64,000 nt of DNA from Dehalococcoidia bacterium (GCA_965207365.1 OZ242281.1:500362-564361), one strand, 5' to 3'. Counted from the stretch's first letter, positions 4,461-64,000 are shown. The notes: generated from the letters alone by a model not told the origin. Program-made: numbers and translations.

Positions 4461-4535
4461 ACGGCGTGTGAGGGAACAACTGCCTTCGTAAGCCTGTTGT
4501 CCACTCCAAACAACCCACTATCCCTTCCCAGTCCC

Positions 4536-4645
4536 CGCTTTACGCGGGGACCTGCTCCCTCCCAGCCCCTTCACATACCAATGAGTCTGCTTTTGGCTGG
4601 GCCCCAGACCGAGCGGGTCCCCGCGTGAAGCGGGGACTGGAATTA
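4536..4645. repeat. inverted pair of family-C hairpin units (ccagtccccgcttcacgcggggacc)
   Basis: ccagtccccgctttacgcggggacctgctccc at 4536 and its reverse complement gggtccccgcgtgaagcggggactgg at 4605-4645. The same unit recurs at 40085/40232 and 57400/63910. Confidence 0.6.
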
Positions 4646-40019: not shown

Positions 40020-40084
40020 TTCTCGTTCTCAGCGACTGACACACAACTCCCCTCCCCTCATGAGCCTGATGTTTAACCCGGATT

Positions 40085-40235
40085 CCAGTCCCCGCTTCAC
40101 GCGGGGACCCGCTCCTTCCTCGGCTCCATCGAAGCGAATCTACTTGTCGTCCATCTCTGGTCAACCGGTATCGGTCGTAGCTGACGCGGGCTGGCCAAAG
40201 CGGGTCCTTGCGTGAAGCGGGGACTGGACCATCAG
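40085..40235. repeat. inverted pair of family-C hairpin units
   Basis: ccagtccccgcttcacgcggggacccgctcc (40088-) and gcgggtccttgcgtgaagcggggactgg (40198-40232). Confidence 0.6.
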
Positions 40236-40242
40236 TAATGCA

Positions 40243-40340
40243 TTGGTCTCTTGTAGGGGCGACCCTTGTGGTCGCCCACTCTGGAGGACCTCACTGGTCA
40301 GTCTTGCTATCGACAAGGCGGGCAACCACAAGGGTCGCCC
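40243..40340. terminator. perfect 20-bp inverted repeat (gtaggggcgacccttgtggt / accacaagggtcgcccctac) in a convergent intergenic region
   Basis: The arms are separated by about 55 bp. It lies between the 3' ends of the LLM (+) and proline dehydrogenase (-) genes. Confidence 0.3.
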
Positions 40341-41404: not shown

Positions 41405-41497
41405 GATCGCCTCAGATCCATCAGCCCCCGCTCGCGGACGCGCAAGCTAGGGCGTGTTCACATAGATGTTGACAACCCATGCTTGGCGCGCCAGCAT

Positions 41498-41560: not shown

Positions 41561-41748
41561 TGCCCTACACCACCCATACGGTTGTTCGCTTCCCCATGTG
41601 AACAGACCCTAGCAGCGCATTTGCAAGCCGATGAAACCTGCTGCGACGCCGATCAACCTGACTTGCAGCGACCTTTCATTCACTGCTCCGCCACAGCCAT
41701 TATTCTGCACCAACGCCGCAGGCGGCGAAGTCCTGCGGCTCAGCGACC

Positions 41749-42180: not shown

Positions 42181-42222
42181 TCCCGATCTCAGCGACAGCC
42201 CTTATGGCTTGGAGTACTTGCT

Positions 42223-46676: not shown

Positions 46677-46710
46677 TCATGACCAGTCCAGTGACCGCCG
46701 CAACTTCTGA

Positions 46711-48922: not shown

Positions 48923-48954
48923 AGTCGGCGCTTCAGGGTCTGTTGAGGTCAGAG

Positions 48955-50343
48955 ATGGTTCAACTGCGCAGCGCTCCGACGGCTCCACAAGATGAACGGG
49001 CACTTCCGGAGCTGAGTGGCGGGGCGCCGCTGATTGGTCACCTGCGGGACTTTCAACGCGACCCGGTGGCCATGATCAGCCGCGGTTGGGATCAGTTGGG
49101 CGAACTGTTCCGATTCCGACTTGGTCCCCGCCAGTTTGTGCTCTTCTGCGGACCCGAGGCGCATGACGCCTTCTTCAGCGCACCCGAGGACCAACTGAAC
49201 GCCAAGGAGGTCTATCAGTTCACCGTTCCAATCTTCGGTCGTGGCGTGGCCTACGATGTCGCGCCCTCGATCATGGACGAGCAGCTCGGCTTTCTCTATC
49301 CAGCACTCCGGGAATCCGCGATGCAAGAGTTCGCCCGGATCATGTACGAGGAAACGGCGCTCCTCGCCGATTCCCTCGGCGAGGAAGGCGTGCTCGATCT
49401 GCCGGAAGCGATGAACGAACTGACCGTGAATATCGCCAGTCGCAGTCTGATCGGACAGGAAGTCCGCGATCAGGTGGACGCGGGCTTCGCCGATGCCTAT
49501 CACGACCTGCAGAAAGGCATCAACACCCTGGGTTTCTTTCTGCCCCGGCTTCCCACTCCCGCGCATCGCAGCCGCGACCGGGCACGTAAACAGGTAGCCG
49601 AAATCTTTGGCCGGATTATGTCGGCCCGTCGTCGTGCCGATGCACGCCCTGACGACTTCATGCAAACGCTCATGGACGCGACCTACAGCGATGGCCGCTC
49701 GTTGAGTGATGACGAGATCACGGGAATCCTCTTGACCGTGTTGTTCGCCGGTCAGCACACCAGCGCAGTGCTCGCCACCTGGACCGGCCTGGAACTCGTC
49801 AAAGCTTCCTCGTACGCGGAACGTGTCAGAGATGAAACGGCCGCCGTGTACGGCGATACCGGGAACATGAGCCTTGAGGGCCTGAGACAACAGGTGACCA
49901 TGGAGCATGCCGTACGCGAGGGGGAACGTCTCCACCCGCCGCTGATCATCCTGATCCGCAAGGTGCTCAAGCCGATGCGCTACGGAGACTACGTGGTGCC
50001 TGAAGGTGCGCTAGCGATGGTCTCGCCGGCGGTTTCTCACCGGTTGCCGCATCTGTTCGCCAACCCGGACCAATTCGACCCGGACCGCTACGCTGAACCC
50101 GCTCGCGAGGACAAACAGCATCCCTACGCCTTGATCGGCTTCGGCGGAGGCAAGCATCGCTGTATGGGCAAGCACTTTGCCGAGATGCAGGTCAAAGCCA
50201 TCTGGACCGTGCTGCTCGATCGCTTCGACTTCAGTCCCGACACTGAGTTTCCGACCCCCAACTACGGCAGTTGGGTCACTGGTCCCGTGACACCCTGCCG
50301 CATCCGATACCGGCGCCGCTCGTCAGGCAGAGTCTTCCGGTGA
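48955..50343 (+). CDS. cyp51: cytochrome P450 CYP51 (sterol 14-alpha-demethylase)
   Basis: FGGGKHRCMG heme-binding loop and the AGQHTS helix-I signature typical of CYP51. The start was chosen at ATG 48955. Confidence 0.8.
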   Translation: MVQLRSAPTAPQDERALPELSGGAPLIGHLRDFQRDPVAMISRGWDQLGELFRFRLGPRQFVLFCGPEAHDAFFSAPEDQLNAKEVYQFTVPIFGRGVAYDVAPSIMDEQLGFLYPALRESAMQEFARIMYEETALLADSLGEEGVLDLPEAMNELTVNIASRSLIGQEVRDQVDAGFADAYHDLQKGINTLGFFLPRLPTPAHRSRDRARKQVAEIFGRIMSARRRADARPDDFMQTLMDATYSDGRSLSDDEITGILLTVLFAGQHTSAVLATWTGLELVKASSYAERVRDETAAVYGDTGNMSLEGLRQQVTMEHAVREGERLHPPLIILIRKVLKPMRYGDYVVPEGALAMVSPAVSHRLPHLFANPDQFDPDRYAEPAREDKQHPYALIGFGGGKHRCMGKHFAEMQVKAIWTVLLDRFDFSPDTEFPTPNYGSWVTGPVTPCRIRYRRRSSGRVFR

Positions 50344-53300: not shown

Positions 53301-53729
53301 GTGCAGTTCATCTACGGCACGTTCTTCGGGATCAAAGGCCTGGTCGCCAATGGAGCGCAGCCGAATGATCCGGCGCTCAACGCGGCATGCAGATGGCTAT
53401 TGGATCGCCAAAAGGACGACGGAGGATGGGGCGAGCATCACAGCGGTTGCATGACCGGCCAGTACGTCCAACACGAGGAGAGTCAGGTGATCCAGACCGC
53501 CTGGGCGTTAATCGCCTTGCTGGAGGCAGGCGCGTCGGACTGGCAGGCCATTGCGCGTGGCGCTCAGTTCCTGATCGACCGGCAGTGCCCGGATGGGACC
53601 TGGCCCAAACAAGACATGGCCGGGGTCTTTTTCCGCACCGCACTGCTGGATTACGTCCTCTACCGCCAGTACTTCCCGTTGCACGCCCTCGGCTTGTACG
53701 AAGAGCGGCGCAAGACCCGCAGCGTCTGA
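50340..53729 (+). CDS. fused squalene monooxygenase (epoxidase) - oxidosqualene cyclase
   Basis: The N-half has a DVAIVGAGPVGS FAD fold and GDAAGHYHPLTATGLTLG (SQMO motif). A linker carries a tandem MPSAPS repeat. The C-half has the VTDCTAEAV (DCTAE) catalytic motif and QW repeats (GGWGEH, DGSWRGVWG). GTG start at 50340 overlaps the CYP51 stop. Confidence 0.85.
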   Translation: MTETGLSRYDVAIVGAGPVGSLCAIAHARKGYRVALFEANPSASERLAGEWLHPPAARILRDFGISVHAEARDGSGKGFAVFPDDGHEPIVLPYSDGSRGLVCEHATLVTRLRETADAEHGVDLRLHARVHTVEDERMTYSQDGASHTVVAERIVGADGRSSVVRRSLGLATRSKTASRMIALTLEGARLPLEGYGHVVCGAPGPMLIYRLSDDLVRAVIDIPLDHAPQDWKGLLSDSYARWLPEPLRAPFVEAWSEDRVHAAANAVSPRVTYGTSRRVLIGDAAGHYHPLTATGLTLGFGDAIALAESEQFEDFRNERFEATRVPELLAMGLYEAFADQRAEAAVLRQAMFGRWRTSAAVRNHTVRLLACEDTSVARLSREFSMTVAWALKAAVPRSLDPLAWSRFGEVARGLSNRMGWLLRGAWNLHSVRRSGKAGPERPTETLSRAFLTSMPSAPSMPSAPTGRPRDGDLRQADALSPDAVPPDAGPAIQDAAARLLDLQAEDGSWEGEMVWCPMITAQWVLLQHIIGRPIDPKRREQILRYFEQSRLPEGSWGLHDHSHPYVFVTALVYVASRLLSVERDDPLVEPARRFLQQEGTLSIPSWGKFWLALLNLYEWSGIHPVLPELWSLPRQLPLHPSNWYCHTRLIYMAMAAIYPRRFQTPVTPLIESLREELFPQGFETIDFPAQRNHLRQADLFAKPTALLRAGYRGAELLERFHSKGLRARSMDELIGQIKWELNTTDHTSISPVSGLLNILALWLHDPDDGDCNRALEQVNQWFWEDEEHGARMTGARSASWDTGFALQALSTAPQIGDLPDALQRGTTYLRQQQVGTSVPGYREAYRNDPKGGWCFAAQWHGWPVTDCTAEAVLGILAADPTSISATALRDAIGFMLRGQNRDGGFGSYEAQRSRIELERVNPAEMFGESMTEHSFVECTASCLAALVACRTHFPEIIDRDTERAILQADACLRRTQHSDGSWRGVWGVQFIYGTFFGIKGLVANGAQPNDPALNAACRWLLDRQKDDGGWGEHHSGCMTGQYVQHEESQVIQTAWALIALLEAGASDWQAIARGAQFLIDRQCPDGTWPKQDMAGVFFRTALLDYVLYRQYFPLHALGLYEERRKTRSV

Positions 53730-53759
53730 CCCTGTCCGCAATGTTCCTCGCCGCGTGGC

Positions 53760-54791
53760 TCAGTTCTCGGTCTGTTCGGGCTTTCGGGCCAGGTAGTAGA
53801 ACATCGGCGTAAACACGCCGGCCTCCCCGCCCTCGACCAGCGCATCCGCGCCCGCATTCAACACGCTGCTGATCTCCCGAGCGCCCTCAGGAACGATCCG
53901 CAGCTTCTCTCCGACTCGCAACGTCAGATTGGTCAAGGCTCGGCCAATCGGCGTTCGTGGCAAACTCGCCAAGCTCAGATCACGGCCCTGCAAGGGGCGA
54001 TACCAGGGGGTCTCCGAATCCGATTCGGGGGCGAGGTCGCGAGCTTCCACGACCTCGAACCCTGCTGCAACCAGCGCCGAACTGATCTCCGATGTGTGCG
54101 CAATATCCGGAAGTCCGTTGCCCTTCATGACGTCCTGCTTGATGCGCACGTGTTCGGCGTTCTCGGGATCGTAAGAATCCGTGAGACACCATTCGAAGCC
54201 GGCAAACTCGCCGCCCGGACGCAGCACGCGGAAGATCTCCCGGAACACTGCGGTCTTGTCGGGCGCGTGCGGTGTGGCTTCGATGTTGATCGCAGCGTCA
54301 AACTGGTCGTCAGCTTCAGGAATGTCCATGTAGTCGCCGTGAATGAATCGGCACTGCGACTGCAAATCCCTCGTGTGGTGTTTGGCGCGATCGATCTGGT
54401 ACGCGTTCAGATTGATTCCAACAAAGTTCGCTCCAGTGCGGCGGGCCAAATTGGCCATCGGTCCGCCGACCCCACAGCCAACATCCAGCACCTGCATGCC
54501 CGAGTTCATGGCTAACTGTTGGGCGAGAAAGTGCTCGTGCCGCAGCATCGATTCGTTGAAACTCTCGCCGCGGCGTCGGGGCGCAAAGTGAAATGACCGA
54601 CCCCAACCGAACTCGTAGAAATCAGTCGCAAGGTTGTAGTAGTGATTGACGACCGCGTGATAGCGATCTTTGCGTTGTTCGAGGCTCCCATCGAACAGCC
54701 CCGAATAGTCCTCAACCGCAGGCTTGATCTCCTCAGGATCCAGGTCGCCAACAGAGCGACCACTCGACCGCTTGGCAAACAGACGGCTCAT
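53760..54791 (-). CDS. sterol 24-C-methyltransferase (ERG6/SMT family)
   Basis: YEFGWGRSFHFA (SMT region I) and LDVGCGVGGP SAM motif. 343 aa. Confidence 0.8.
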   Translation of the reverse strand: MSRLFAKRSSGRSVGDLDPEEIKPAVEDYSGLFDGSLEQRKDRYHAVVNHYYNLATDFYEFGWGRSFHFAPRRRGESFNESMLRHEHFLAQQLAMNSGMQVLDVGCGVGGPMANLARRTGANFVGINLNAYQIDRAKHHTRDLQSQCRFIHGDYMDIPEADDQFDAAINIEATPHAPDKTAVFREIFRVLRPGGEFAGFEWCLTDSYDPENAEHVRIKQDVMKGNGLPDIAHTSEISSALVAAGFEVVEARDLAPESDSETPWYRPLQGRDLSLASLPRTPIGRALTNLTLRVGEKLRIVPEGAREISSVLNAGADALVEGGEAGVFTPMFYYLARKPEQTEN

Positions 54792-55141
54792 GGCCTCTCT
54801 CCTACGGCGCGGCCTGGAGCGCCATCGAAACCAGGAAAATGCCAGTTCCGTCGAGATTTGCGCGCCACCTCAAACTCCCTCATTGCTTTACAAAGACCCT
54901 GGAGTCGACTGGATCGCAACCATGTTAGGCCCTGTGCGCATCGCGTCGACGTTCTGGTAGACCAGCGATGGCAAGCATCGCGACCTCCCCGAGACAACCG
55001 ATCAGGCACGTTCCGCGCAGATGTTGCTCACCAGAAGCTAGGGTCTGGTCACATGGGGAAGCGAACATCCGTGTGGGTGGTTGAGGGCATTGTCGATGGG
55101 GAGTGGGACCCCCACAGCCGTCGGCAGCTCCCCCTGTTAGA

Positions 55142-55340
55142 GAACGATGCATAACTCCCCTTCTCCCCCTTGCGGGGGAGATGCCGAAGGCAGAGGGGGG
55201 TGCCCTGTTTGCTCGCCTATCTGGTCAGCATCGGCCGCCCCCCCTTCTGTCACTCCGTGACATCTCCCCCCGCAGGGGGGGGAGAGGAGAATTGCGGGTT
55301 ATGCATCGGTCTCTGTTAGGGGGAGCGGGGAATGCTGGCG
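55142..55340. repeat. MITE-like palindromic repeat (family A, full copy with gatgcataactcc / ggttatgcatcggtct termini)
   Basis: Highly similar to 34725-34925 and 61007-61205. Confidence 0.75.
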
Positions 55341-55378
55341 CGCCAAGCATGGGTTGTTGGCATCGATGTGAACACGCC

Positions 55379-56468
55379 CTAGGCGACCGATCGCTTGGCG
55401 ATCACCTCTCGGCCGAAGTCGGCGACCAAATCGCGCGCGCCGGCGGCGTTCGTACAGGCAATGGCGACGTTGTCAATGCCGTCCGCTTCCATCTGCTCGA
55501 GCCGTTCGATGATCTGCGCCGGTGTGCCGGTCAGCGTCTGGCCAATCGAGGTCTCGCTGATGAACTGTTCCTCTCCCGGCTTGAGAAAGACCATGTGGCC
55601 CGTATGCACGTCCAGATACCGCCGATCTGGCTGACTGCCACGTGCGTCGCCGTACTCCACGATGTAGCGATGGAACGCAGCAGCAGCGTCGGGATCCTCG
55701 ATCCCCAGGTTCGCTCCCGGCCCATAGTGAGACTCCCACATCGCATGCAGACCCGGTAGCGCGTTCGGGCCCACCCGCTCGACCACACGCGGGGACATGA
55801 GCGACTCGCCGCCGCGCAGCACACAGCCACTGGTCAAGCCGACCGTGTACGGCTTGTCGGTCGACCGCCCGGCGGCGGCAGCGGCGACGCGTATCGTTTC
55901 GAAGCCCGTCTCGAGGTCGCGTGTGAGTGCGCCGGTCACCCAGCCGTCGGCGAGTTCGCCCGTCGCTGCCAGCGCCCTCGGACCATTCGCGGCGAGATAG
56001 ATCGGGATGTCGTCCTCGATATTGATGAAATCTCCACGATCCGGATGCAGCAACCGAATCCAACGCTCTCGCGTGCCTTCGCGAATCAGCACTTCCTCGC
56101 CCTGCAGCAGGCCGCGGACTTGCTGCGTGTACTCGCGGAACTCCGCGGCCGGCACGGCTGGCAGACCCATGGTGTTGCGACCGGTGTAGCCCGTGCCCAG
56201 ACCCAGAATGACCCGTCCGGGCGCCAGGTAGTTGATCGTGGCGATGGCGGAAGCTGTCACCGCCGGGATGCGGTTGCTCGGGATCGCCACCAGGGTGCCC
56301 AGCTTGATCCGGCTGGTGTGCTCCGCCGCCAAAGCCATGGTGGCGTAGACATCGCTGTAGATCAGTTGCGAATCAAAGAACCAGGCGTGCGTGAAGCCCG
56401 CCGCTTCAGCCGCGGCCGCGTCGCGCCACGCATCGATGTATGAGGGAAAGGCAATGCCGTAGTCCATG
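55379..56468 (-). CDS. LLM-class (luciferase-like) flavin/F420-dependent oxidoreductase
   Basis: The start was chosen at the internal Met (MDYGIAFPSY) of ORF 55379..56590. TIM-barrel LLM pattern (WFFDSQL, GLGTGYTG). Confidence 0.7.
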
Positions 56469-56639
56469 GAGCCTCCTGAAGTCGGATCGATTTCGCAAGG
56501 AAGATAGACGACCACAATCTCCCCCCCCCACCTCCCGCGACTGGGTGCCATCGACGCTGTTTCATTTCGTCGGAGCCCGGCCGCTTGCAACGCAAACCAG
56601 GCTCAACCGATGCCATACTGCATCCAAAGGGAACTCAGG

Positions 56640-57155
56640 ATGCGCATCGACATCGGAACCTGTCAGATTCGCCCCTACCGGCAGGACGATGCCCGCTCGA
56701 TGGCTGCGGCGGCCAACAACCGCAACATCTGGCGGAACATGCAGGACGGATTTCCGCATCCCTTCACCCTGGCCGACGCCCAGGCCCGGATCGCACTGAC
56801 GGTGAATCAGGTTCCGCAGCAGACCTTCGCGATCGCTTCCCGGGAGCAGGTCATCGGCGGCATCGGCCTGGAACTCCGCCAGGATGTGTTCCGTCGCTCG
56901 GCCGAGATTGGCTATTGGCTAGGTGAGTCGCATTGGGGCCAGGGCATCGCGACCGCCGCAGTCCGAGCGTTGACGAAGTTCGCCTTCGAGCAGTTCGATC
57001 TGGTCAGGATCGACGCCAGCGTGTTCGAGTGGAATCCGGCATCATGCCGCGTCCTCGAGAAGGCTGGCTACGTGCAGGAGGCGCGCTTGCGCCAGGCCGT
57101 CTACAAGGACGGTGAGACCATCGACCGCCTGATCTACGCCAGGCTGCGCGCCTAG
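56640..57155 (+). CDS. GNAT-family N-acetyltransferase
   Basis: Acetyl-CoA binding motif region (WGQGIATAAVRAL). About 171 aa from ATG 56640. Confidence 0.7.
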   Translation: MRIDIGTCQIRPYRQDDARSMAAAANNRNIWRNMQDGFPHPFTLADAQARIALTVNQVPQQTFAIASREQVIGGIGLELRQDVFRRSAEIGYWLGESHWGQGIATAAVRALTKFAFEQFDLVRIDASVFEWNPASCRVLEKAGYVQEARLRQAVYKDGETIDRLIYARLRA

Positions 57156-57295
57156 CCTGTTCGGATGGGGAGTGAGACACCGGACGAGTGTTACACAGCA
57201 TGGCTGGTGGGGAGCGCGACCCCCTTCAGCCTCAGTCAGCTCCCACTGCAATACATCGATGCCTAACCTGGAATCCGCCCCCGCCTCCGAGGAGA

Positions 57296-57400
57296 CCATT
57301 GAAAACTCCCCTTCTCCCCCCTTACGGCGGGAGCTGCCGAATCCCTGTCCCCTTTCTCCCCCCTTACGGAGACTGATGCATAACTGAGTTTCCCGTCCCC
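57296..57400. repeat. deleted variant of the family-A MITE
   Basis: ctccccttctccccccttacggcgggagctgccgaatccctgtcccctttctccccccttacggagactgatgcataactg. Confidence 0.55.
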
Positions 57401-57540
57401 GCCCCCGAGCGGGGACCCGCTTTGGCCTGGCCCGGGCAGCACGGATCAGTTCCTGTTGACCAGATACGAGCGACAAGCATGGCCGCCGAGCAGAAGCCGG
57501 GGAAGGAACAGGCCCCCGCTCGGAGGCGGGGCCGGTTGAG
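57400..57540. repeat. 140-bp family-C element, left copy of an inverted pair (partner at 63770-63910)
   Basis: cccgtccccgcccccgagcggggacccgctttggcctggcccgggcagcacggatcagttcctgttgaccagatacgagcgacaagcatggccgccgagcagaagccggggaaggaacaggcccccgctcggaggcggggccgg is the reverse complement of 63770-63910. Confidence 0.7.
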
Positions 57541-57542
57541 AG

Positions 57543-57745
57543 GTTGTGCATCAGTCTCTTACGGCGGGAGCTGCCGAATCCCTGTCCCCTTTCTCCCCCC
57601 CTTGCGGGGGGAGATGCCGAAGGCAGAGGGGGGGCCGGCTTGGGCACGAGAGGTGAGATCCGGTGTTGGGAGGTTGCGCGACGTACCCCCCCCTCTGTCG
57701 CAAGGCGACATCTCCCCCCGCAGGGGGGAGAGGGTATTCGGGAGT
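57543..57745. repeat. MITE-like palindromic repeat (family A variant)
   Basis: gtgcatcagtctcttacggcgggagctgccg...ctcccccccttgcggggggagatgccgaaggcagaggggggg...ccccccctctgtcgcaaggcgacatctccccccgcaggggggagaggg. Confidence 0.65.
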
Positions 57746-57896
57746 TTTGCAAAGGCATCCCTCCGAGCGGGAATTGTAGGCGAGCCCTACGTTTGTTCCA
57801 GACAACCATTTGCACACGACCCGGCCAACGCGCCGCCGTCGGTTGCAACGGTTTCGCCGCGGGCCTAGCCTTGCCCTCGAACACGGGAGGGTGTGG

Positions 57897-58211
57897 ATGC
57901 CGTCTCAGTATCCGATCGATCCAAGCCGAACCGATCTCGCTCGAGAGTTCATGGCCAACCCCATGGGTCCTCATAGCGCCGCGCTGCAGCGCATCGTCAC
58001 CCGGATGCGCGACACCGAAGCGGCCGGTCGTTACGTCCTCGTCACGCTGGTGCCCTACAAGGAGTGGGGTCTCGCCCGGCTCTCCGGTCAGCGTGGCGTT
58101 GATGTCACCCTCGACGAGGACCAGGTCTTCACGTCAATCGAAGACGGAGAACGCGCGGTGTTCAAACTGCGCTGGGAACTGATCACCGGCGCCCCACTCA
58201 GCCTCGACTGA
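57897..58211 (+). CDS. hypothetical small protein, possibly the small subunit partner of the downstream DMFase-like protein
   Basis: GGAGG lies upstream of ATG 57897. 104 aa. It is immediately upstream of the large gene. The function is inferred from gene order only. Confidence 0.3.
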   Translation: MPSQYPIDPSRTDLAREFMANPMGPHSAALQRIVTRMRDTEAAGRYVLVTLVPYKEWGLARLSGQRGVDVTLDEDQVFTSIEDGERAVFKLRWELITGAPLSLD

Positions 58212-58232
58212 TGTGGCCAAAGGGAGCGATCC

Positions 58233-60479
58233 ATGCTGGAAAAGAAGATCGCGGGCTACAGCGACGAGATCAGCGTGGCTCCGGGCGAACGTATCCGCTT
58301 CATGGTTAGCTGCGAGCCCGGCGTCGATCGCTACCAGGCCGATATCGTCCGCCTCATCTCCGGCGATCGCCAACCCGGCGGGCCCGGTTATCGCGACGAA
58401 CTCCTGCCAACATCCGTCAGCGGCGAGTACCCAGGCCGCAGGCAAGAGACCTACTGCGGCTCATACGCCATCGTTCCGCACGGTCCGGCCTTTGACGGCC
58501 TTGCCGATCTCTCCCTCCAAGCGACCATCTTTCCTACGCTCCCGAGCCTTCGTCGTGCATGCGTCATCTCCAAGATGGACGTCGACGACGGCCGCGGATT
58601 CGCCCTCTGGACCGATCCCGCAGACGGCCTGGTCCTGCAACTCGGCGACGGTGACGGAGGACTGCAAGAATTCGCCCTCGGCCAGCCCTTCGTCAGCCGC
58701 GAGTGGTACCTGGTCAACGCGACGTACGACGCCGCGACCGGTGAAGTCCACTTGCGGCAACAACTGTTGGGCTCCTACGCGCTGGACACTTCCAGTGGCG
58801 AGGCCGAACACACCAGCGACAAGACCGCTGTCGTCGCCAGCGACGCGCCACTCCTGATCGCGGCCGCCAGTCGTGAAGAGGCTCGCGGAAGACCGATCGG
58901 CGAGATGATCTTCAACGGTCGCATTGAGCGGCCGGTCGTCGCTTCCCGAGTCCTGACGCAGAGCGAGATTGAAGCACTGCGCAGCGAGGATCTTCCCGTC
59001 GCCTTGCGAGTCGACATCTGCGCCGCCTGGGACTTCGCCCGCGCATTCGAGACGGACGAGATCATCGATATCTCGCCCAACCGCGCACACGGCCAGCTCG
59101 TCAACCTCCCGATTCGCGCCGTACGCGGCTCCACCTGGACCGGCGATGAGCTCAGTTTTCGCCACGCGCCGGATCAGTATGCCGCGATCCATTTCCTCGA
59201 CGACTCGCTCTACGACTGCGAGTGGGACGCCGACTTCGAACTGAAAATCCCCGCCGACACGCCGAGCGGCCTCTACGCCGCCCGGATCAGGGCCGGTGAT
59301 CAAGAAGACCACATCACCTTCGTCGTGCGGCCTCCGCGTGAAATCATTGGTCAGAGTCGGGCCGCCGCGTCGCTGGCGTTTCTCATCCCAACGGCCAGCT
59401 ACATGGCATACGGCAACTCGCGCGGCGGGATCGAGACCGGCAATGAGTTGCTTTCCAACAGCCTCCACGTCGTCTCGCCGGACGAACGCTACCTCAACCG
59501 ACACCCGGAGTATGGCAACTCCATGTATGACGTCCACAACGACGGCACGGGCGTCTGTTACTCCTCCCGGCTGCGACCGCTAATCAATATCCGCCCGACC
59601 CACCCCTGGCTCTGGCAACTCAGCGCCGACATGCACCTCGTCGAGTGGCTCGAAGCGCAAGACATCCCCTTCGATGTCATCACCGACGAAGACATGCACC
59701 AGGATGGCGTCTCGCTGCTGGAGCGCTACTCCTGCGTCATGACCTGCAGCCACCCCGAGTACTACTCCACCCCCATGTGGGACGCGGTACACGCCTTCAC
59801 CCAGCGCGGCGGGCGGCTGATGTACATGGGCGGCAACGGCTTCTACTGGCGCGTCGCCTACCGAGATGACAAACCCGGCGCCATGGAGATGCGACGGACC
59901 GAAGACGGATCCCGCTCCTGGGCCAGCGAGCCGGGCGAGTACTACATGGCCTTCACCGGCGAGTACGGCGGACTCTGGTGGCGCGCCGGACGCACCCCGC
60001 AGTCCCTGGTCGGCAACGGATTCATCGCCCAGGGCTTCGACCACTCCTCCTACTTCCGCCGCGCCCCCGGCAGCGACGACCCTCGCGCCGCATTCATCTT
60101 CGAGGGCGTCGACGACGAGATCATCGGCGACTTCGGTCTGATCGGCGGCGGCGCAGCCGGCCTCGAGCTTGACTGGGCCAGCCGTGCCTACGGCACTCCG
60201 CCTCATGCCCTGGTCGTCGCGACCTCCGAGCAGCACACCGACGCCTACATCCGTGTGAACGAGGACATCGGTCACATGCTGCCCGCGATCGGCGGACAGG
60301 ACGATCCCCGAGTGCATGCCGACGTGGTTTTCTTTGAGACGCCGCGCGGTGGCGCTGTGTTCTCCACCGGGTCGATCGGCTGGAGTTCCGCCCTGTTCCA
60401 CAACAATCACGACAACAACATCTCGCGGATCACGCGCAACGTGCTCGACCGATTCCTCGACACCACCGCGTTCACATAG
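58233..60479 (+). CDS. N,N-dimethylformamidase large (beta) subunit-family protein (tentative)
   Basis: 748-aa protein whose size and small-then-large gene arrangement match dmfA1-dmfA2. The C-terminal region has a class-I glutamine-amidotransferase-like block (CVMTCSHPEYYSTPMWDAVHAFTQRGGRLMYMGGNGFYWRV). The assignment rests on recall of the family and was not verified by search. Confidence 0.4.
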   Translation: MLEKKIAGYSDEISVAPGERIRFMVSCEPGVDRYQADIVRLISGDRQPGGPGYRDELLPTSVSGEYPGRRQETYCGSYAIVPHGPAFDGLADLSLQATIFPTLPSLRRACVISKMDVDDGRGFALWTDPADGLVLQLGDGDGGLQEFALGQPFVSREWYLVNATYDAATGEVHLRQQLLGSYALDTSSGEAEHTSDKTAVVASDAPLLIAAASREEARGRPIGEMIFNGRIERPVVASRVLTQSEIEALRSEDLPVALRVDICAAWDFARAFETDEIIDISPNRAHGQLVNLPIRAVRGSTWTGDELSFRHAPDQYAAIHFLDDSLYDCEWDADFELKIPADTPSGLYAARIRAGDQEDHITFVVRPPREIIGQSRAAASLAFLIPTASYMAYGNSRGGIETGNELLSNSLHVVSPDERYLNRHPEYGNSMYDVHNDGTGVCYSSRLRPLINIRPTHPWLWQLSADMHLVEWLEAQDIPFDVITDEDMHQDGVSLLERYSCVMTCSHPEYYSTPMWDAVHAFTQRGGRLMYMGGNGFYWRVAYRDDKPGAMEMRRTEDGSRSWASEPGEYYMAFTGEYGGLWWRAGRTPQSLVGNGFIAQGFDHSSYFRRAPGSDDPRAAFIFEGVDDEIIGDFGLIGGGAAGLELDWASRAYGTPPHALVVATSEQHTDAYIRVNEDIGHMLPAIGGQDDPRVHADVVFFETPRGGAVFSTGSIGWSSALFHNNHDNNISRITRNVLDRFLDTTAFT

Positions 60480-60645
60480 CAGGGACGTCGGAAGCCCCCG
60501 CACGGATGCCAAGCGCTCGCCAAGCGCTCACATCCGCTACACGTCGTCGCACGTCGTCGCAGAGCACTAGCATTCAACGTAGGCCGGTAGGTCGCATGTC
60601 TGCAACACACGCAGACGAGCGGACTGCCGCACTACGGAGGTTCTC

Positions 60646-60951
60646 ATGAAGACGTTAGTCATGGAGATCATCACACTGGTCGTCTTCTGGCCGCTGCGAA
60701 TCGTCTCTCGACTGTTCGGTCGTCGGGCCAACGCCAAGGTACGCCAGTGGCAGGACAACACCTGGACCTGGTGGTTGGGAGCGGCCGCCGTGGGCTACAT
60801 GGTCGGCGACCATCACCTGGGAAGCGACCAGGGACAAGGCGTCGGCGGTTACGAAGGCGGACACTACGACGGCGGACACTCCGGCGGTGGTCACGACGTC
60901 GGCGGCGGCTTCGACGGCGGCGGATTCGGCGGCGACATCGGCAGCTTCTAA
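60646..60951 (+). CDS. small membrane protein with Gly/His-rich low-complexity C-terminal tail
   Basis: N-terminal hydrophobic helix, then GGYEGGHYDGGHSGGGHDVGGGFDGGGFGGDIGSF. Confidence 0.35.
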   Translation: MKTLVMEIITLVVFWPLRIVSRLFGRRANAKVRQWQDNTWTWWLGAAAVGYMVGDHHLGSDQGQGVGGYEGGHYDGGHSGGGHDVGGGFDGGGFGGDIGSF

Positions 60952-61006
60952 GCAACCGCCCGACTCGAGCAGCGGCCATATGACCAGGCGCACCTGGATT
61001 CCCCGC

Positions 61007-61215
61007 TCCCCCTTGCAGAGACTGATGCACAACTCCCCTTCTCCCCCCTTGCGGGGGAGATGCCGAAGGCAGAGGGGGGTCCCTGCCTGTTGGCCCTATC
61101 TGGTCGTCGCCAGCCGACCCCCCCTCTGTCACTCCGTGACATCTCCCCCCGCAAGGGGGGGAGAGGGGAATCGGAGGTTATGCATCAGTCCCTGCAAGGG
61201 GGAGCGGGGAATCCA
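61007..61215. repeat. MITE-like palindromic repeat (family A, full copy with agactgatgcacaactcc / ggaggttatgcatcagtcc termini) plus short sub-unit
   Basis: Reference copy. It is internally self-complementary along its whole length (ctcccccttgcgggggagatg pairs with catctccccccgcaagggggggagagg, and cagaggggggtc pairs with gaccccccctctg). Confidence 0.8.
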
Positions 61216-61522
61216 GGTGCGCTTTGCATAGGCTCTTAGCATCCATGTGAACTGACCCTAGCTACGTGCACTGGAATTCTGATTGCCTGCCTCGTCAGTT
61301 CGGGGCTGGTCACGGCGCCGGCTCGTCGGCCAGGAACTCGGTACACGAGCACAGGTCTTGCTGCTCCGCCGCGACTCCTGGGTGAGGACGTCTCGACCGC
61401 GTATGGATGCAAACGGCCGATGTGCATAGGCTACGGATTCGGACAGATCGAAGAGAGCATGGAGGGGGAGTGGAATGATGACTGATCGACCCAGACCACA
61501 CAGCGCTAACTCGCGCGGACGT

Positions 61523-61537
61523 GGGGGGGGGGGGGGG
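61523..61537 (+). repeat. 15-nt poly-G homopolymer inside the 5' end of a secreted-protein gene
   Basis: GTG at 61521 is followed by G15. The downstream signal-peptide frame is +1 relative to this GTG. A tract of 14 G would give M-GGGG-VRLPRRHRPWFALAAVAALALLAAVATLNSQPAEA, a complete signal peptide. Confidence 0.6.
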
Positions 61538-61581
61538 TACGCCTGCCACGGCGGCACCGACCCTGGTTCGCCCTGGCCGCA

Positions 61582-63549
61582 GTGGCGGCGCTGGCACTGC
61601 TGGCAGCCGTCGCGACGCTGAATAGCCAACCCGCTGAAGCGCAGTGGCAACCCTGTGTCTTCGTGCATCCCACAAGCGTCACCGTCACGGAAGGCGAAGC
61701 GGCCGAGCTGACGCTGACGACGACCACCGTCCTCAAGAAAGCGGTCGAGGTGACCTTGATAGCAGTAGGCGGAACGGCCACAAGAGGAGACAACGACTTC
61801 CCCAGCGCCCCGCTGACGGCAACGATTCGTGCGAACCAGTTCAGGACCACAGTAAACTTCCCGACAACCTGGAATGCCCCGACTGAACCAGATGAGTCGT
61901 TCGAGGTGGACATCCTCGTAACCGGCCTAAACGCTGACCTGGTGCCGTGTGAGAATCGTAGCCGCGCGACGATTACGATCGAGGATGTCCCACAATCCAC
62001 CGTCCATATCACCGGCCGCACGCCGCTGCAGCCATGGTACGAAGGCAACAGCCTCACCTTCGGCGTCTTCGTCGACGACGCTGTGGTCCAACCGATCGAC
62101 TACACCGTTCGCGTGAACCTCAGTGGCGCGACCAACTTCCTGGCCCCGGGCGAGAGCACCACTCGCAACGTCAGGATCAAAAAAGGCTCCATTGGCACGC
62201 ATTTCAAGGTGCGGACGATAGACGACGGCGTCAGCGAATCCGACGGAGACATCACCGCGACGCTGGCGACGCCAGCGACAAGTGCCCGTTATGTGCTGGA
62301 CAGTGACACGTCGCGGCGCTCCCGTGCGCTACGCGTCTCCGACAACGACGGCTCGTCGGGTTTCTCTTCCACGGTGACGTTGGGCGGCACAACCGCCACG
62401 AGCACGACGATCTCCGAGGGCTTCCTGCCACCACGTGAGCAGACGGGCACTCCTGCCAGTACGTACGGCAACGTGGCGAACCTGGCGCTGGCCACGACCG
62501 GCTCATTCGAGCAGGGTCTGGTGCGACTGTTCCTCGAAGTTGGCGGCACCGCCGAGTACGGGGTCGACTATCTGCTGCAAGTCTGGGACCCGGGCTTTGT
62601 CGGCGGCTGGTACAACCTGTCCCGGTCGTACATTCGCCCGCCCGCGGGCGGCAAACTCGGTCAGGTGGAGTGGGTCCCATTCTCGCGGAACAGCCACCTC
62701 CGAGTGGTCGCCCTGGCTGATCGCGACACCGATACCGGCGAAACCATCACGATCAAGGTGGTCAATTGGAACACCACGAAGCTGTACCATCCCCGTGCGC
62801 ACGTGACTCTGTCGAACAATGTCGCCCACACCATCACCATCGGTACGGACATCGTCGGCACGGTGCGGCTCTCCTCCAGTGAGCCGTCAGGTGAGATTGG
62901 CGAGACCAATGGGCACGGAGAGCCGGCCAAGCAGACCGTCGACCCGACGCCGCAGCCGCCATTGGAGAAGTACGCCGCGCTGGTCAAGTCGTTCTACGAC
63001 CGCATCAGCGCCAAGAACCAGCACGGCGACAGCGCCGGCGGCGGCTGGAACAAGCGCTTCCTCAAGGCGATGGGTCACCCGGAGTACGTCGACTACCCGC
63101 AGCCCGCAGTGACGGTCGCGGATGCGACAAGGCTCTGGAATCACGGCGGACAGGGCGCCAACACAGCCTGGGACGGCACGGTCGAAGCGGTAACCTACGC
63201 CAACCAGTACGTCGCGCCCACGCCGACACCAACGCCGACACCCACTCCGACTCCGACGCCCACTCCGACTCCGACGGTCGAGCCTGAGCCGACGCCGCAG
63301 CCGCCGCTCGAGAAGTACGCGACGCTGATCGCGCGGATCAAGACGGACATGCAGAGTCCGAACTACGGCAACGAGGCACACGACCTGAAGCGGGTGCTGA
63401 AGACGCTCGGCGTGCCCGAGTACGCCAACTACGACGGCAACCCGGTCGGAGTGCAAGAGGCGACCAACCGTCGCACGAAGCCCAACGACAACCCGCACTG
63501 GGCAGGCATCGCCGAGGCGATTCAGTACGCGCAGTCGTACACGCCATAG
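61582..63549 (+). CDS. secreted repeat protein with Calx-beta-like domains, a (PT)n linker and duplicated C-terminal domains; the 5' end is apparently frameshifted or phase-variable at the G-tract
   Basis: TVTEGEAAELTLTTT-type Calx-beta signatures. PTPTPTPTPTPTPTPTPT linker. Two homologous roughly 90-aa C-terminal modules each start TPQPPLEKYA. As written the ORF starts at GTG 61582 with a truncated signal peptide. Confidence 0.55.
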   Translation: MAALALLAAVATLNSQPAEAQWQPCVFVHPTSVTVTEGEAAELTLTTTTVLKKAVEVTLIAVGGTATRGDNDFPSAPLTATIRANQFRTTVNFPTTWNAPTEPDESFEVDILVTGLNADLVPCENRSRATITIEDVPQSTVHITGRTPLQPWYEGNSLTFGVFVDDAVVQPIDYTVRVNLSGATNFLAPGESTTRNVRIKKGSIGTHFKVRTIDDGVSESDGDITATLATPATSARYVLDSDTSRRSRALRVSDNDGSSGFSSTVTLGGTTATSTTISEGFLPPREQTGTPASTYGNVANLALATTGSFEQGLVRLFLEVGGTAEYGVDYLLQVWDPGFVGGWYNLSRSYIRPPAGGKLGQVEWVPFSRNSHLRVVALADRDTDTGETITIKVVNWNTTKLYHPRAHVTLSNNVAHTITIGTDIVGTVRLSSSEPSGEIGETNGHGEPAKQTVDPTPQPPLEKYAALVKSFYDRISAKNQHGDSAGGGWNKRFLKAMGHPEYVDYPQPAVTVADATRLWNHGGQGANTAWDGTVEAVTYANQYVAPTPTPTPTPTPTPTPTPTPTVEPEPTPQPPLEKYATLIARIKTDMQSPNYGNEAHDLKRVLKTLGVPEYANYDGNPVGVQEATNRRTKPNDNPHWAGIAEAIQYAQSYTP

Positions 63550-63577
63550 CCGGTCGGCCGCAACACCGCCCGCGAAT

Positions 63578-63760
63578 CCTCTCTCCCCCCCTCGCGGGGG
63601 GAGATGTCACGACTCCCGAATCCTCTCTCCCCCCCTTGCGGGGGGAGATGCCGAAGGCAGAGGGGGGGTCCGCTGTTCAGCAGCCCTATCTGGTCATCAG
63701 CAGCCGACCCCCCCTCTGTCACTCCGTGACATCTCCCCCCGCAAGAGACTGATGCACAAC
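63578..63760. repeat. MITE-like palindromic repeat (family A)
   Basis: ctctcccccccttgcggggggagatgccgaaggcagagggggggtcc...gaccccccctctgtcactccgtgacatctccccccgcaagagactgatgcacaacc. Confidence 0.7.
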
Positions 63761-63769
63761 CTCTCAACC

Positions 63770-63910
63770 GCCCCCGCCTCCGAGCGGGGCCTGTTCCTTC
63801 CCCGGCTTCTGCTCGGCGGCCATGCTTGTCGCTCGTATCTGCTCAACAGGAACTGATCCGTGCTGCCCAGGCCAGGCCAAAGCGGGTCCCCGCTCGGGGG
63901 CGGGGACGGG
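63770..63910. repeat. 140-bp family-C element, right copy (inverted relative to 57400-57540)
   Basis: Reverse complement of 57400-57540 across its whole length. Confidence 0.7.
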
Positions 63911-64000
63911 AAACTCAGTTATGCATCAGTCTCTTGCGGGGGGAGATGTCACGACTCCCGAATCCCCTCTCCCCCCCTTGCGGAGACTGATGCATAACTC
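63905..64000. repeat. partial family-A MITE copies running off the window end
   Basis: actcagttatgcatcagtctcttgcggggggagatgtcacgactcccgaatcccctctcccccccttgcggagactgatgcataactc. Confidence 0.55.

What the first reader, a model, noticed from the sequence alone, without database searches (positions are those of the whole stretch)
57400..63910. 6.4-kb segment bounded by perfect-orientation 140-bp inverted repeats (family C), carrying a DMFase-like module and a secreted repeat protein
The 140-bp sequence at 57400-57540 reappears as its exact reverse complement at 63770-63910. The same hairpin core (ccagtccccgcttcacgcggggacc) occurs as tight inverted pairs at 4536/4645 and 40088/40232, so it is a second mobile or structured repeat family.

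The bounded interval contains four genes and an internal family-A MITE (61007-61215):
- a 104-aa gene of unknown function;
- a 748-aa N,N-dimethylformamidase-large-subunit-like gene;
- a Gly/His-tailed small membrane protein;
- a secreted Calx-beta/PT-repeat protein.

Both IR copies also abut family-A MITEs on their outer sides. No transposase is inside, so this is not a canonical composite transposon. The arrangement is still that of a cassette delimited by inverted elements and could be prone to inversion or excision by recombination between the IRs.
Basis: seen in the sequence. Interest (0 to 1): 0.55.

Follow-up and report, generated by a model that had tools for sequence, protein, structure and literature searches.

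The report
Two MITE copies, not a cassette
The inverted repeats are real, but they are two separately inserted copies of a 190-bp miniature transposon that lands in the hairpin loops of other intergenic repeats, and the genes between them do not form a mobile unit.

Summary
The repeat is real. Arms 57369-57573 and 63730-63933 match as reverse complements. They are not exact: the 190-bp element proper (57369-57558 vs 63745-63933) is 97.9% identical.

Each arm is a complete MITE-like element. It has terminal inverted repeats GAGACTGATGCAYAAC/GTTRTGCATCAGTCTC, two subterminal GTCCCCGC hairpins and no ORF. The "family-A MITEs" share these termini.

About 18 such elements (window, related MAGs, metagenomes) nearly all sit in the loop of a C-run/G-run hairpin belonging to another repeat. 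Nine have perfect 5-bp target duplications. This produces nested repeat clusters.

The left copy has its own intact duplication (TTACG), so it inserted alone and has not recombined with the right copy since. A related Dehalococcoidia MAG (about 90% nt identity) has GNAT-DMFalpha-DMFbeta-101aa contiguous, with 28 bp where the window has 645 bp of repeats. Three other relatives share only the 2.65-kb DMFase operon. The Calx-beta gene has no close orthologue.

The 6.4-kb block is therefore not a conserved or demonstrably mobile cassette. Homologous inversion between the copies remains physically possible but untested. The right copy's discordant flanks suggest past recombination among such elements. 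No autonomous transposase was found.

The finding is ordinary. The hairpin-loop targeting is mildly interesting.

The parts
57369..57558 (+). Young C-type 'T-arm' MITE, copy 1 (190 bp). It has termini GAGACTGATGCATAAC...GTTGTGCATCAGTCTC and subterminal hairpins GTCCCCGC-CCCCGA-GCGGGGAC at 57395-57416 and its complement at 57511-57535.
   Evidence: Folds as one long hairpin, -59.7 kcal/mol, z = -5.1.
57364..57368 (.). Left target-site duplication TTACG of copy 1. The right copy of the duplication is at 57559-57563. It lies in the loop of the hairpin CTCCCCCC-TTACG-GCGGGAG.
   Evidence: An uninterrupted paralogous hairpin lies 43 bp upstream (about 57314-57333).
63745..63933 (-). Young C-type T-arm MITE, copy 2 (189 bp), in reverse orientation. 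It is 97.9% identical to copy 1. Its flanks are CGCAA (63740-63744) and TTGCG (63934-63938), which are reverse complements of each other, not a direct duplication.
57292..57759 (+). Older A-type element with variant termini (GAGACCATTGAAAAC ... GTTTTGCAAAGGCATC). It hosts copy 1 and is flanked by the direct repeat CCTCCGAG (57284-57291 / 57760-57767).
   Evidence: sequence parsing; A-core similarity
57252..57291 (-). Remnant end of an old C-type element (TACATCGATGCCTAAC-CTGGAAT-CCGCCCCCGCCTCCGAG). The loop of its hairpin received the A-type element. A 28-bp relic of it is the only repeat left at this site in the relative L001 (9564-9591).
57322..57363 (+). 42-43-bp hairpin-plus-linker unit repeated 100% identically at 57559-57600, on either side of copy 1 (a tandem hairpin unit).
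   Evidence: (D9)
63573..63744 (+). REP-like hairpin unit (63573-63616) plus an A-type core without its own T-arms (63617-63744). Copy 2 sits in the loop of its last hairpin.
63934..63982 (.). 49-bp stretch between copy 2 and the next T-arm element. Its reverse complement is exactly what a normal CGCAA duplication plus the hairpin's right half would give. It is read here as a footprint of recombination between T-arm elements.
   Evidence: inference from sequence
63983..64000 (+). Start of a further T-arm element (GAGACTGATGCATAACTC...), cut by the window end.
61018..61192 (+). Its flanks TTGCA|...|TGCAA are compatible with a 4-bp TGCA duplication.
   Evidence: (I3)
60986..61261 (.). Degenerate outer ('level-1') MITE that hosts the 61018-61192 element. 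Its right end is ATGTGAACTGACCC|TAG at 61245-61258. The same terminus type is found on an IS5-family IS in L001.
57897..58211 (+). DMFase small-subunit homologue (104 aa).
   Evidence: Orthologues of the same length and position carry PF26354 DMF_alpha. No hit in the local Pfam copy.
58233..60479 (+). DMFase large-subunit-family amidohydrolase (748 aa).
   Evidence: PF20254, E = 7.5e-94. PDB 6lvb_A, E = 2.4e-144 over the full length.
60646..60951 (+). 101-aa small protein with a Gly/His-rich tail. Conserved next to the operon in L001, and a protein of similar size follows in L010.
61582..63549 (+). 655-aa secreted protein with a weak Calx-beta match and a Pro/Thr linker. Lineage-specific.
   Evidence: Best homologue is 50% identical over 70% of the query.
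40062..40250 (-). Old C-type element, about 70% identical to the young copies. It is orthologous to one in Chloroflexi bin125 (L005 2035-2223, 96.8% identical).
4528..4640 (.). Short degenerate C-type element: both hairpins are present, the core is shortened and the T-arms are decayed.

Best explanation
The two arms are two separately inserted copies of a non-autonomous, MITE-like transposable element of about 190 bp (called C-type here).

Anatomy. The element has 16-bp terminal inverted repeats (GAGACTGATGCAYAAC, the 'T-arm'). Inside these are two subterminal GC-rich hairpins and a roughly 90-bp core that codes for nothing. The whole element can fold into one long hairpin. The more abundant 'family-A' elements (about 175 bp) use the same termini around a different core. 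That core is made of two inverted CTCCCCCC-loop-GGGGGGAG hairpins.

Target choice. Elements with these termini insert into the loop of such C-run/G-run hairpins and duplicate about 5 bp of the loop. Family-A cores and other local repeats carry these hairpins, so every insertion creates new targets and intergenic regions fill up with nested, Russian-doll clusters. Both arms of the finding are the innermost, youngest layer of two such clusters. One cluster lies between the GNAT gene and the DMFase operon. The other lies after the Calx-beta gene.

Consequence. The genes in between are ordinary chromosomal genes: a two-subunit DMFase-family amidohydrolase operon, a small membrane protein and a fast-evolving secreted protein. 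They are not cargo.

Shown: the repeat, the termini, the duplications, the hairpin targets, nesting, absence of the repeats in a relative, and lack of a shared 6.4-kb unit.
Inferred: cut-and-paste or copy-in by a DDE-type transposase supplied in trans (none was found), and the direction 'insertion in this lineage' rather than 'deletion in the relative' for the older layers.
For: - Repeat and element limits.
- The same architecture is seen in nine C-type copies from five Dehalococcoidia/Chloroflexi MAGs. The termini and hairpin stems are conserved, and changes between the two arms are compensatory.
- Long-hairpin fold: z = -5.1.
- Target duplications: 9 of about 18 non-redundant T-arm elements have 5/5 identical flanking pentamers (TTGAA, TTGCA, TGTTA, TTACG, TTGCG, TGCAA x2, CGCAA), against a chance of 1/1024 each. 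Three more fit TGCA in a palindromic TTGCAA loop. Nearly all have complementary C-run/G-run stems outside the duplication.
- Paralogous empty sites: the same hairpin is uninterrupted at 41498-41530 and interrupted at 55140/55313 and 34728/34902. An uninterrupted twin hairpin lies 43 bp upstream of copy 1.
- Synteny: L001 has GNAT-DMFalpha-DMFbeta-101aa, with window 57179-57823 reduced to 28 bp. L002, L009 and L010 share only about 57841-60480, with different neighbours.
- The Calx-beta gene has no close orthologue.
- No known RNA family was found, no promoter-like sites and no transposase domain in the block.
- The window copies are no closer to each other (97.9%) than copy 1 is to a copy in another MAG, L004 (98.4%). 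Both therefore descend from a conserved source rather than homogenising each other.
Against: - No autonomous element with these termini was found in any fetched DNA or among the 94 metagenome hits; only pairs 170-200 bp apart were seen. The transposase, and therefore the mechanism, is inferred.
- Copy 2 lacks a direct duplication.
- Older copies (40k, L005, L102, L047) have decayed or unclear duplications.
- The source genome was not available, so genome-wide copy number is unknown. If the young C-type subfamily is rare (only 1-2 pattern matches per related genome), two copies 6.2 kb apart is unlikely by chance (my rough estimate is a few per cent). That hints at local hopping or some link between the two copies.
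- The 'empty' site in L001 keeps a 28-bp relic of an old C-type end, so part of the difference could be deletion in L001.
Confidence: 0.8

Rival explanations
1. MITE-bracketed composite transposon. The outer ends of the two copies would be used together by a transposase acting in trans, so the DMFase/Calx-beta block moves as one unit. This is what was shown for integrons bracketed by IMU or other MITE pairs.
For: - Two near-identical copies in inverted orientation, each with complete termini, bracket four genes.
- The DMFase operon has different neighbours in four relatives, so the region is fluid.
- A precedent is described in PMC3184786 (IMU, 5-bp duplication).
- The two young copies lie unusually close if the subfamily is low-copy.
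Against: - The left copy has its own duplication, TTACG|TTACG. The outer flanks of the pair are TTACG and TTGCG, a 4/5 match expected anyway because all target loops resemble TTGCG.
- The GNAT gene outside the block is syntenic with genes inside it in L001.
- The unit shared among relatives (57841-60480) does not coincide with the repeats.
- The Calx-beta gene is found next to the operon in no relative.
Confidence: 0.05
2. REPIN-type elements. The two inverted GTCCCCGC hairpins would be a REP doublet moved as single-stranded DNA by a RAYT (Y1/HUH) transposase, and the T-arms would be incidental flanks.
For: - Each C-type element holds two REP-like palindromes in inverted orientation about 95 nt apart and folds into a long hairpin.
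- The A-type core is likewise a doublet of inverted hairpins.
- Hairpin units also occur in tandem without T-arms, in a BIME-like arrangement at 63573-63660.
Against: - Copies are always bounded by the T-arm termini, not by the hairpins.
- They carry direct 5-bp duplications, which HUH/IS200-IS605-type transposition does not make (established knowledge; see PMC3333891 and PMC2817692, listed).
- No RAYT gene was seen, although the whole window and genome were not screened.
Confidence: 0.08
3. A functional invertible or excisable segment. The 190-205-bp inverted repeats would serve as recombination sites that flip the 6.2-kb block, for example to switch expression of the secreted protein or the DMFase operon.
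For: - About 200 bp at 98% identity is enough for RecA-dependent inversion (established knowledge).
- Copy 2 shows a flank discordance best explained by recombination among T-arm elements.
Against: - No recombinase or invertase lies in or beside the block.
- No promoter-like site was found in the left cluster.
- The left copy's duplication is intact, so no net inversion between these two copies has occurred since it inserted.
- The gene orientation matches the relatives.
Confidence: 0.05
4. Structured non-coding RNA or regulatory element (terminator, attenuator or sRNA) conserved for function rather than mobility.
For: - Strong predicted fold and compensatory changes between arms.
- The core positions TTGAC-CAGA and GACAA are invariant across nine copies.
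Against: - No Rfam match.
- Copies occur in both orientations and in unrelated intergenic contexts, nested inside other repeats, with target duplications.
- Arm-to-arm covariation is expected for any element whose two ends must both be recognised.
- There is no T-tract terminator of note.
Confidence: 0.02

Closest known systems
Bacterial MITEs (e.g. Nezha, Chunjie, Correia/CREE, RUP, ERIC), as reviewed in PMC3184786
   Same: - Less than 200 bp and non-coding.
- Terminal inverted repeats and short direct target duplications.
- Thermodynamically stable hairpin fold.
- Multiple dispersed intergenic copies.
- Filled versus empty sites between relatives.
   Different: - No cognate IS with the same termini was found.
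- The target is a structural feature (the loop of a C-run/G-run hairpin of another repeat) rather than a short sequence such as TA.
- Two families with unrelated cores share one pair of termini.
- Heavy self-nesting.
REP/BIME-targeting insertion sequences (IS1397, ISKpn1, IS621, ISPpu9/10, ISPa11, ISRm19/22), PMC1525189 and PMC3184786
   Same: Insertion is directed to extragenic palindromic repeats. For IS1397, insertion into the REP itself is documented in the cited review; that it is specifically the loop is from my memory. The repeats act as hot spots that concentrate mobile DNA in intergenic regions.
   Different: - Those are autonomous ISs of the IS3 or IS110 families in Proteobacteria; here only miniature derivatives are seen, in Dehalococcoidia.
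- IS110-family members make no inverted termini and use a guide RNA.
- The 5-bp duplication here differs from the 3-4 bp of IS1397 (that figure is from my memory).
MITE- or IMU-bracketed composite elements (integron mobilization units; MITE-flanked class 1 integrons)
   Same: Two copies of a miniature element with complete termini bracket a few kb of genes. The 5-bp duplication size is the same as reported for IMU.
   Different: - In those cases the pair shares one duplication and the bracketed block is found transposed.
- Here the left copy has its own duplication and an outside gene is syntenic with inside genes in a relative.
- The block is not found as a unit elsewhere.
REPINs / RAYT system (PMC2817692, PMC3333891)
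   Same: Doublets of inverted REP-like hairpins that fold into a long hairpin. They are clustered and sometimes tandem hairpin units in intergenic DNA.
   Different: Target duplications and conserved outer inverted termini are present. No RAYT gene was identified.
N,N-dimethylformamidase (PDB 6LVB) and N-acetyl-(R)-beta-phenylalanine acylase (PDB 8HUY)
   Same: - The large subunit aligns end to end (E = 2.4e-144 and 1.6e-140).
- A small-subunit gene lies immediately upstream.
- The residues aligned with Tyr399, Tyr440 and Glu521 of 6LVB are Tyr, Tyr and Glu. Their role as metal ligands is from my memory of the structure paper.
   Different: - Roughly 40-45% identity by eye from the printed alignment (not computed), so the substrate is unknown.
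- The family has more than 1,200 homologues at E <= 1e-50 in many phyla.
- This is cargo-neutral context and not part of the repeat biology.

Membership tests
MITE (miniature inverted-repeat transposable element) | Terminal inverted repeats | tested here: met
   GAGACTGATGCAYAAC / GTTRTGCATCAGTCTC at both ends of both copies and of about 18 related elements.
MITE (miniature inverted-repeat transposable element) | Direct target-site duplication flanking each copy | tested here: inconclusive
   Copy 1 has TTACG/TTACG, a perfect duplication. Copy 2 has CGCAA/TTGCG, which is not direct. Across the family, 9 of about 18 have 5/5 matches and 3 more fit a 4-bp TGCA duplication.
MITE (miniature inverted-repeat transposable element) | Small size and no transposase | tested here: met
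   189-190 bp. The only ORFs across it are spurious read-throughs of GC-rich repeat DNA.
MITE (miniature inverted-repeat transposable element) | Multiple copies, with filled and empty sites | tested here: met
   - C-type copies occur in five MAGs.
- The young copies and the A-type host are absent at the orthologous L001 site.
- Paralogous empty hairpins exist.
- An orthologous old copy is shared with bin125.
MITE (miniature inverted-repeat transposable element) | An autonomous IS sharing the termini | tested here: not met
   No T-arm pair 0.25-4 kb apart at the GC content of these genomes was found in the window, 10 related loci or the 94 metagenome hits. This was a limited search and the source genome was not available.
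Composite transposon / MITE-bracketed mobile unit | One target duplication shared by the outer ends of the pair, with inner flanks unrelated | tested here: not met
   The outer flanks are TTACG and TTGCG. The left copy's inner flank equals its own outer flank.
Composite transposon / MITE-bracketed mobile unit | The bracketed block occurs as a unit, in other contexts or present/absent as a whole | tested here: not met
   L001 keeps GNAT plus three of the four genes without the repeats. L002, L009 and L010 share only the DMFase operon. The Calx-beta gene is absent from all.
REPIN / RAYT-mobilised REP doublet | Two REPs in inverted orientation forming a hairpin | tested here: met
   GTCCCCGC-loop-GCGGGGAC at both subtermini.
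REPIN / RAYT-mobilised REP doublet | No target duplication and no outer inverted termini | tested here: not met
   5-bp duplications and conserved T-arm termini are present.
REPIN / RAYT-mobilised REP doublet | A cognate RAYT gene in the genome | not testable with these tools
   The source genome is not available, and the window was not fully screened for Y1 transposases.
DMFase-family two-subunit amidohydrolase | Large subunit with the DMFA2_C domain, aligned to solved DMFase over its full length | tested here: met
   PF20254, E = 7.5e-94. 6lvb_A residues 5-755 aligned.
DMFase-family two-subunit amidohydrolase | Small (alpha) subunit gene adjacent | tested here: met
   A 104-aa ORF lies 21 bp upstream. 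Its orthologues carry PF26354 DMF_alpha. There is no sequence hit to the PDB small subunit.
DMFase-family two-subunit amidohydrolase | Activity on N,N-dimethylformamide | not testable with these tools
   The closest solved relatives have different substrates (DMF; N-acetyl-beta-phenylalanine).

The most novel reading that the evidence does not exclude
The T-arm elements (A-type and C-type) may be moved by a so-far unidentified transposase that recognises DNA structure, namely the loop of a C-run/G-run hairpin or cruciform, rather than a sequence. Because the elements carry such hairpins themselves, the family would be self-targeting. It would build nested repeat 'nests' that act as safe havens in the compact genomes of uncultivated sponge-symbiont Dehalococcoidia. 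Those nests would then be the breakpoints at which neighbouring operons, such as the DMFase operon, are reshuffled between strains.
Probability: 0.3. Interest if true: 0.5.

Novelty: new member of a known kind. Interest (0 to 1): 0.27.

Why it matters
For the finding as posed, it matters little. There is no evidence that the DMFase/Calx-beta block is a mobile or switchable cassette. Annotation should treat the repeats as two MITE insertions.

The by-product is of some use in three ways.
- It defines an undescribed MITE family with exact termini, a 5-bp duplication and a clear hairpin-loop target preference, in an uncultivated sponge-symbiont lineage where mobile elements are essentially uncharacterised.
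- It explains the mosaic intergenic repeats that fragment short-read assemblies of these genomes.
- It gives a reading frame, intact versus discordant duplications, for spotting past recombination at such repeats.

The window also carries a full sterol-synthesis cluster next door. That cluster is more likely to interest biologists than the repeat itself.

Tried and rejected
- **Source contig:** an exact-protein look-up for the source contig failed; the 748-aa protein is not on record. The source genome, its copy numbers and the DNA beyond position 64000 could therefore not be examined.
- **Rfam:** a scan of the whole window found nothing.
- **Small subunit:** a PDB sequence search with the 104-aa/133-aa ORF gave only a chance hit, and the local Pfam copy has no hit. 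Its identity rests on the precomputed PF26354 hits of orthologues.
- **Right boundary:** looking for an orthologue of the Calx-beta gene, to compare the right boundary in relatives, gave a best hit of 50% over 70% of the query and nothing in the fetched loci. The right boundary therefore has no empty-site comparison.
- **Autonomous element:** the metagenome scan with the 17-nt T-arm returned 94 hits, mostly chance matches in unrelated GC contexts. The real ones were all 170-200-bp elements.
- **Inversion between the two copies:** this was considered as the cause of copy 2's odd flanks and rejected, because copy 1 would then also be discordant.
- **Flanking repeat length:** the flanking repeat was first read as 7 bp. 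It was revised to 5 bp plus the terminal G/C of the termini after more copies were seen. This also resolved the apparent exception at 61018-61192 (TGCA in a palindromic loop).
- **Promoter/terminator scan:** the scan of the left cluster gave nothing above shuffles.
- **Literature:** searches for nested MITEs in bacteria were swamped by plant papers.
- **L001 IS:** a tblastx of the L001 IS5-family element against the window found no copy.

Full report
**Observation**

The repeat finder on 56-64 kb and on the whole window reports an inverted repeat with arms 57369-57516 / 63786-63933 (148 nt, 99% complementary). It continues after a 1-nt indel as 57514-57573 / 63730-63789 (60 nt, 93%). It is the longest inverted repeat in the window.

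The match is also not exact: over the element proper (57369-57558 vs the reverse complement of 63745-63933) there are 3 substitutions and 1 indel, or 97.9% identity.

The hairpin core recurs at 4528-4552/4616-4640 and at 40085-40109/40203-40227, with none expected in shuffles.

The four ORFs are as described:
- The 748-aa protein has PF20254 DMFA2_C (E = 7.5e-94) and aligns end to end with the DMFase large subunit 6lvb_A (E = 2.4e-144).
- The 104-aa ORF is the small subunit, because its orthologues carry PF26354.
- The 655-aa protein has a sub-threshold Calx-beta match.

No transposase or recombinase domain is present in the block.

**What each arm is**

I aligned the two arms with the 40-kb and 4.5-kb copies and with six copies fetched from related genomes. 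This shows one element type. From the outside in, it consists of:
- a 16-bp terminal inverted repeat, GAGACTGATGCAYAAC ... GTTRTGCATCAGTCTC, called the T-arm here;
- a 7-8-nt linker;
- a GC-rich hairpin, GTCCCCGC-loop-GCGGGGAC;
- a core of about 90 nt;
- the mirror hairpin, linker and T-arm.

The element folds into one long hairpin (DNA parameters -59.7 kcal/mol, z = -5.1). The hairpin loops change in a compensatory way between the two arms across family members. There is no Rfam match.

That core is itself a doublet of inverted CTCCCCCC-loop-GGGGGGAG hairpins.

**Target and duplication**

With the termini defined as above, the flanking pentamers are identical for 9 of about 18 non-redundant elements collected from the window, the related MAGs and metagenome contigs: TTGAA, TTGCA, TGTTA, TTACG, TTGCG, TGCAA (twice), CGCAA. 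Chance for each is 1 in 1024.

Three more, including 61018-61192, have TTGCA|...|TGCAA. This is what a 4-bp TGCA duplication in a palindromic TTGCAA loop gives. The remainder are old, diverged copies.

In nearly all cases the duplication is the loop of a hairpin whose C-run and G-run stems lie just outside it (stem complementarity column). Uninterrupted versions of the same hairpins exist in paralogous repeats. For example, CTCCCCCTTGCAGGGGGAGCTGCCGAAGGCTGAGGGGG is intact at 41.5 kb and split by an insertion at 34.7 kb and 55.1 kb.

So T-arm elements behave as transposons that insert into hairpin loops of other repeats. A-type cores bring two new hairpins with each insertion, so clusters grow by nesting.

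**The two clusters**

The left cluster has three layers:
1. An old C-type end at 57252-57291.
2. An A-type element with variant termini at 57292-57759, sitting in the loop of the old element's hairpin and flanked by CCTCCGAG on both sides.
3. The young C-type copy at 57369-57558, inside the A-type element's first hairpin. It is flanked by TTACG on both sides and by a 42-43-bp hairpin-plus-linker unit that is 100% identical on both sides.

In the right cluster, copy 2 (63745-63933) sits in the last hairpin of an A-type core (63617-63744). Its flanks are CGCAA and TTGCG, which are reverse complements rather than a direct repeat.

The reverse complement of the 49 bp that follow copy 2 (63934-63982) is exactly what a normal CGCAA duplication plus the right half of that hairpin would look like. 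A further T-arm element then starts at 63983.

I read this as a footprint of recombination between T-arm elements. It could be a deletion between two direct copies that had inserted into oppositely oriented hairpins, or an inversion between copy 2 and its neighbour. This is inference, and the window ends before it can be checked.

**Is the 6.4 kb a unit?**

The source genome is not in the protein index, but close relatives are.

L001 (Dehalococcoidia MAG OZ244071.1) is collinear with the window at 90-92% nt identity from 45991 to 60950. There are two gaps:
- Window 54964-56600 is missing from L001. This stretch is a MITE nest plus a luciferase-like monooxygenase gene.
- Window 57179-57823 is represented by 28 bp that retain only a relic of the old C-type end.

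L001 thus has GNAT, DMFalpha, DMFbeta and the 101-aa gene contiguous without the repeats. None of the repeat motifs occur in its 22 kb. Collinearity ends at 60950. At that point L001 carries an 879-bp IS5-family element and the window carries a degenerate MITE with the same kind of terminus.

Three further relatives at 86-87% identity (L002, L009, L010) share only about 57841-60480, the two-gene operon, with different neighbours on both sides. The Calx-beta gene has no homologue better than 50% identity over 70% of its length and none in any fetched locus.

The conserved unit is therefore the 2.65-kb operon, which does not coincide with the repeats.

Copy 1's intact duplication also shows that it arrived as a single 190-bp element and that no net inversion between the two copies has happened since. 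The outer flanks of the pair (TTACG, TTGCG) match at 4 of 5 positions, but all target loops resemble TTGCG, so this carries no weight.

**Age and source**

Copy 1 is 98.4% identical to a copy in another MAG (L004, OZ247431.1) and 97.9% identical to copy 2. The two window copies therefore descend from a conserved source rather than from each other by conversion.

The 40-kb copy is about 70% identical to them. It is orthologous to one in Chloroflexi bin125 (L005), whose surrounding DNA is 93-94% identical to window 35399-42447. The family is thus older than the split of these lineages and has been active since.

bin125 comes from the sponge Aplysina aerophoba (PMC5649159). Two of the metagenome hits are from the A. 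aerophoba metagenome JGIcombinedJ30088 (metagenome identity from PMC10070321). The organism is thus very likely a sponge-associated Dehalococcoidia/Chloroflexi symbiont.

**Mechanism and its limits**

Inverted termini plus a fixed-length duplication point to a DDE-type transposase acting in trans. I could not find one. No T-arm pair of IS length at the right GC content occurs in the window, the ten related loci or the 94 metagenome hits.

Insertion of ISs into REP/BIME palindromes is well documented in Proteobacteria (PMC1525189, PMC3184786). The behaviour therefore has precedent, but here it is shown by miniature elements in a different phylum.

The REPIN/RAYT alternative fits the hairpin doublets but not the termini and duplications.

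A MITE-bracketed composite, as with IMU-bracketed integrons, is mechanistically conceivable but has no support here.

Homologous inversion across about 200 bp at 98% identity is physically possible. It remains untested because no reads were available.

One residual oddity favours some link between the copies. If young C-type copies are as rare as the 1-2 pattern matches per related genome suggest, two copies within 6.2 kb would be unlikely by chance. Local hopping into nearby nests would explain it.

**Verdict**

The repeat is real but ordinary in kind. It consists of two copies of a previously undescribed MITE family embedded in nested repeat clusters. The cassette interpretation is not supported. 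The hairpin-loop targeting and self-nesting are the only mildly novel aspects.

Noticed in passing
window 45582-54791: A complete bacterial sterol-synthesis gene cluster lies just upstream of the finding. It comprises:
- an NAD-dependent epimerase / 3-beta-HSD-like reductase;
- a Rieske oxygenase;
- an ERG4/ERG24-type reductase;
- a cytochrome P450;
- a 1152-aa fusion of squalene epoxidase and oxidosqualene cyclase;
- a sterol methyltransferase with the Sterol_MT_C domain.

It is syntenic in L001. Bacterial SMTs from the Aplysina aerophoba metagenome were shown to make 24-isopropyl sterols (PMC10070321). This lineage may be their source.
   Followed up: partly
L001 12782-13660; window 41450-41609, 55041-55379, 61245-61258: A third, outermost MITE family has termini GGGCGTGTTCACAT.../...ATGTGAACAGACCC and a TA duplication inside CTAG. 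The copy at 41450-41609 is absent from the orthologous site in bin125 (L005). An 879-bp IS5-family element with the same termini sits in L001 exactly after the stop codon of the 101-aa gene, where the window has a degenerate MITE of this type.
   Followed up: partly
window 54964-56600: A MITE nest plus a luciferase-like monooxygenase gene (403 aa, PF00296) is present in the window but precisely absent from L001 (junction at 8982/8985). In L009 the orthologous monooxygenase gene lies near the DMFase operon. This is a gene-sized indel bordered by repeats.
   Followed up: partly
window 57841-60480 vs L001, L002, L009, L010: The DMFalpha-DMFbeta operon is conserved at 86-92% nt identity but has different neighbours in each of four related genomes. 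L010 also has A-type repeats just upstream of it, at 9280-9480. The operon's surroundings are rearrangement-prone across the clade.
   Followed up: partly
window 58233-60479: In the alignment to DMFase 6lvb_A, the positions aligned with Tyr399, Tyr440 and Glu521 are Tyr, Tyr and Glu. From my memory of the structure paper these are the iron ligands, so the enzyme is probably catalytically competent. Its substrate is unknown.
   Followed up: partly
window 40250-40340: Another small inverted repeat, AGGGGCGACCCTTGTGGTCGCC ... GGCAACCACAAGGGTCGCCCCT, lies directly beside the old C-type element. The C-type element appears to be inserted at its edge. It may be yet another repeat family.
   Followed up: no
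window 16630-16811 and 21366-21599: There is a Gln/Ala-rich coding microsatellite-like repeat (CAGCAG/GCC periodicity of 12-15) and a 117-bp tandem duplication at 90% identity.
   Followed up: no
window 62941-62985 and 63286-63330: The Calx-beta protein contains an internal duplication of a C-terminal module of about 115 aa (PTPQPPLEKYA...), separated by a (PT)n linker. Homologues share mostly this C-terminal part (14-34% query coverage at 60-82% identity). This suggests a shuffled domain family.
   Followed up: no
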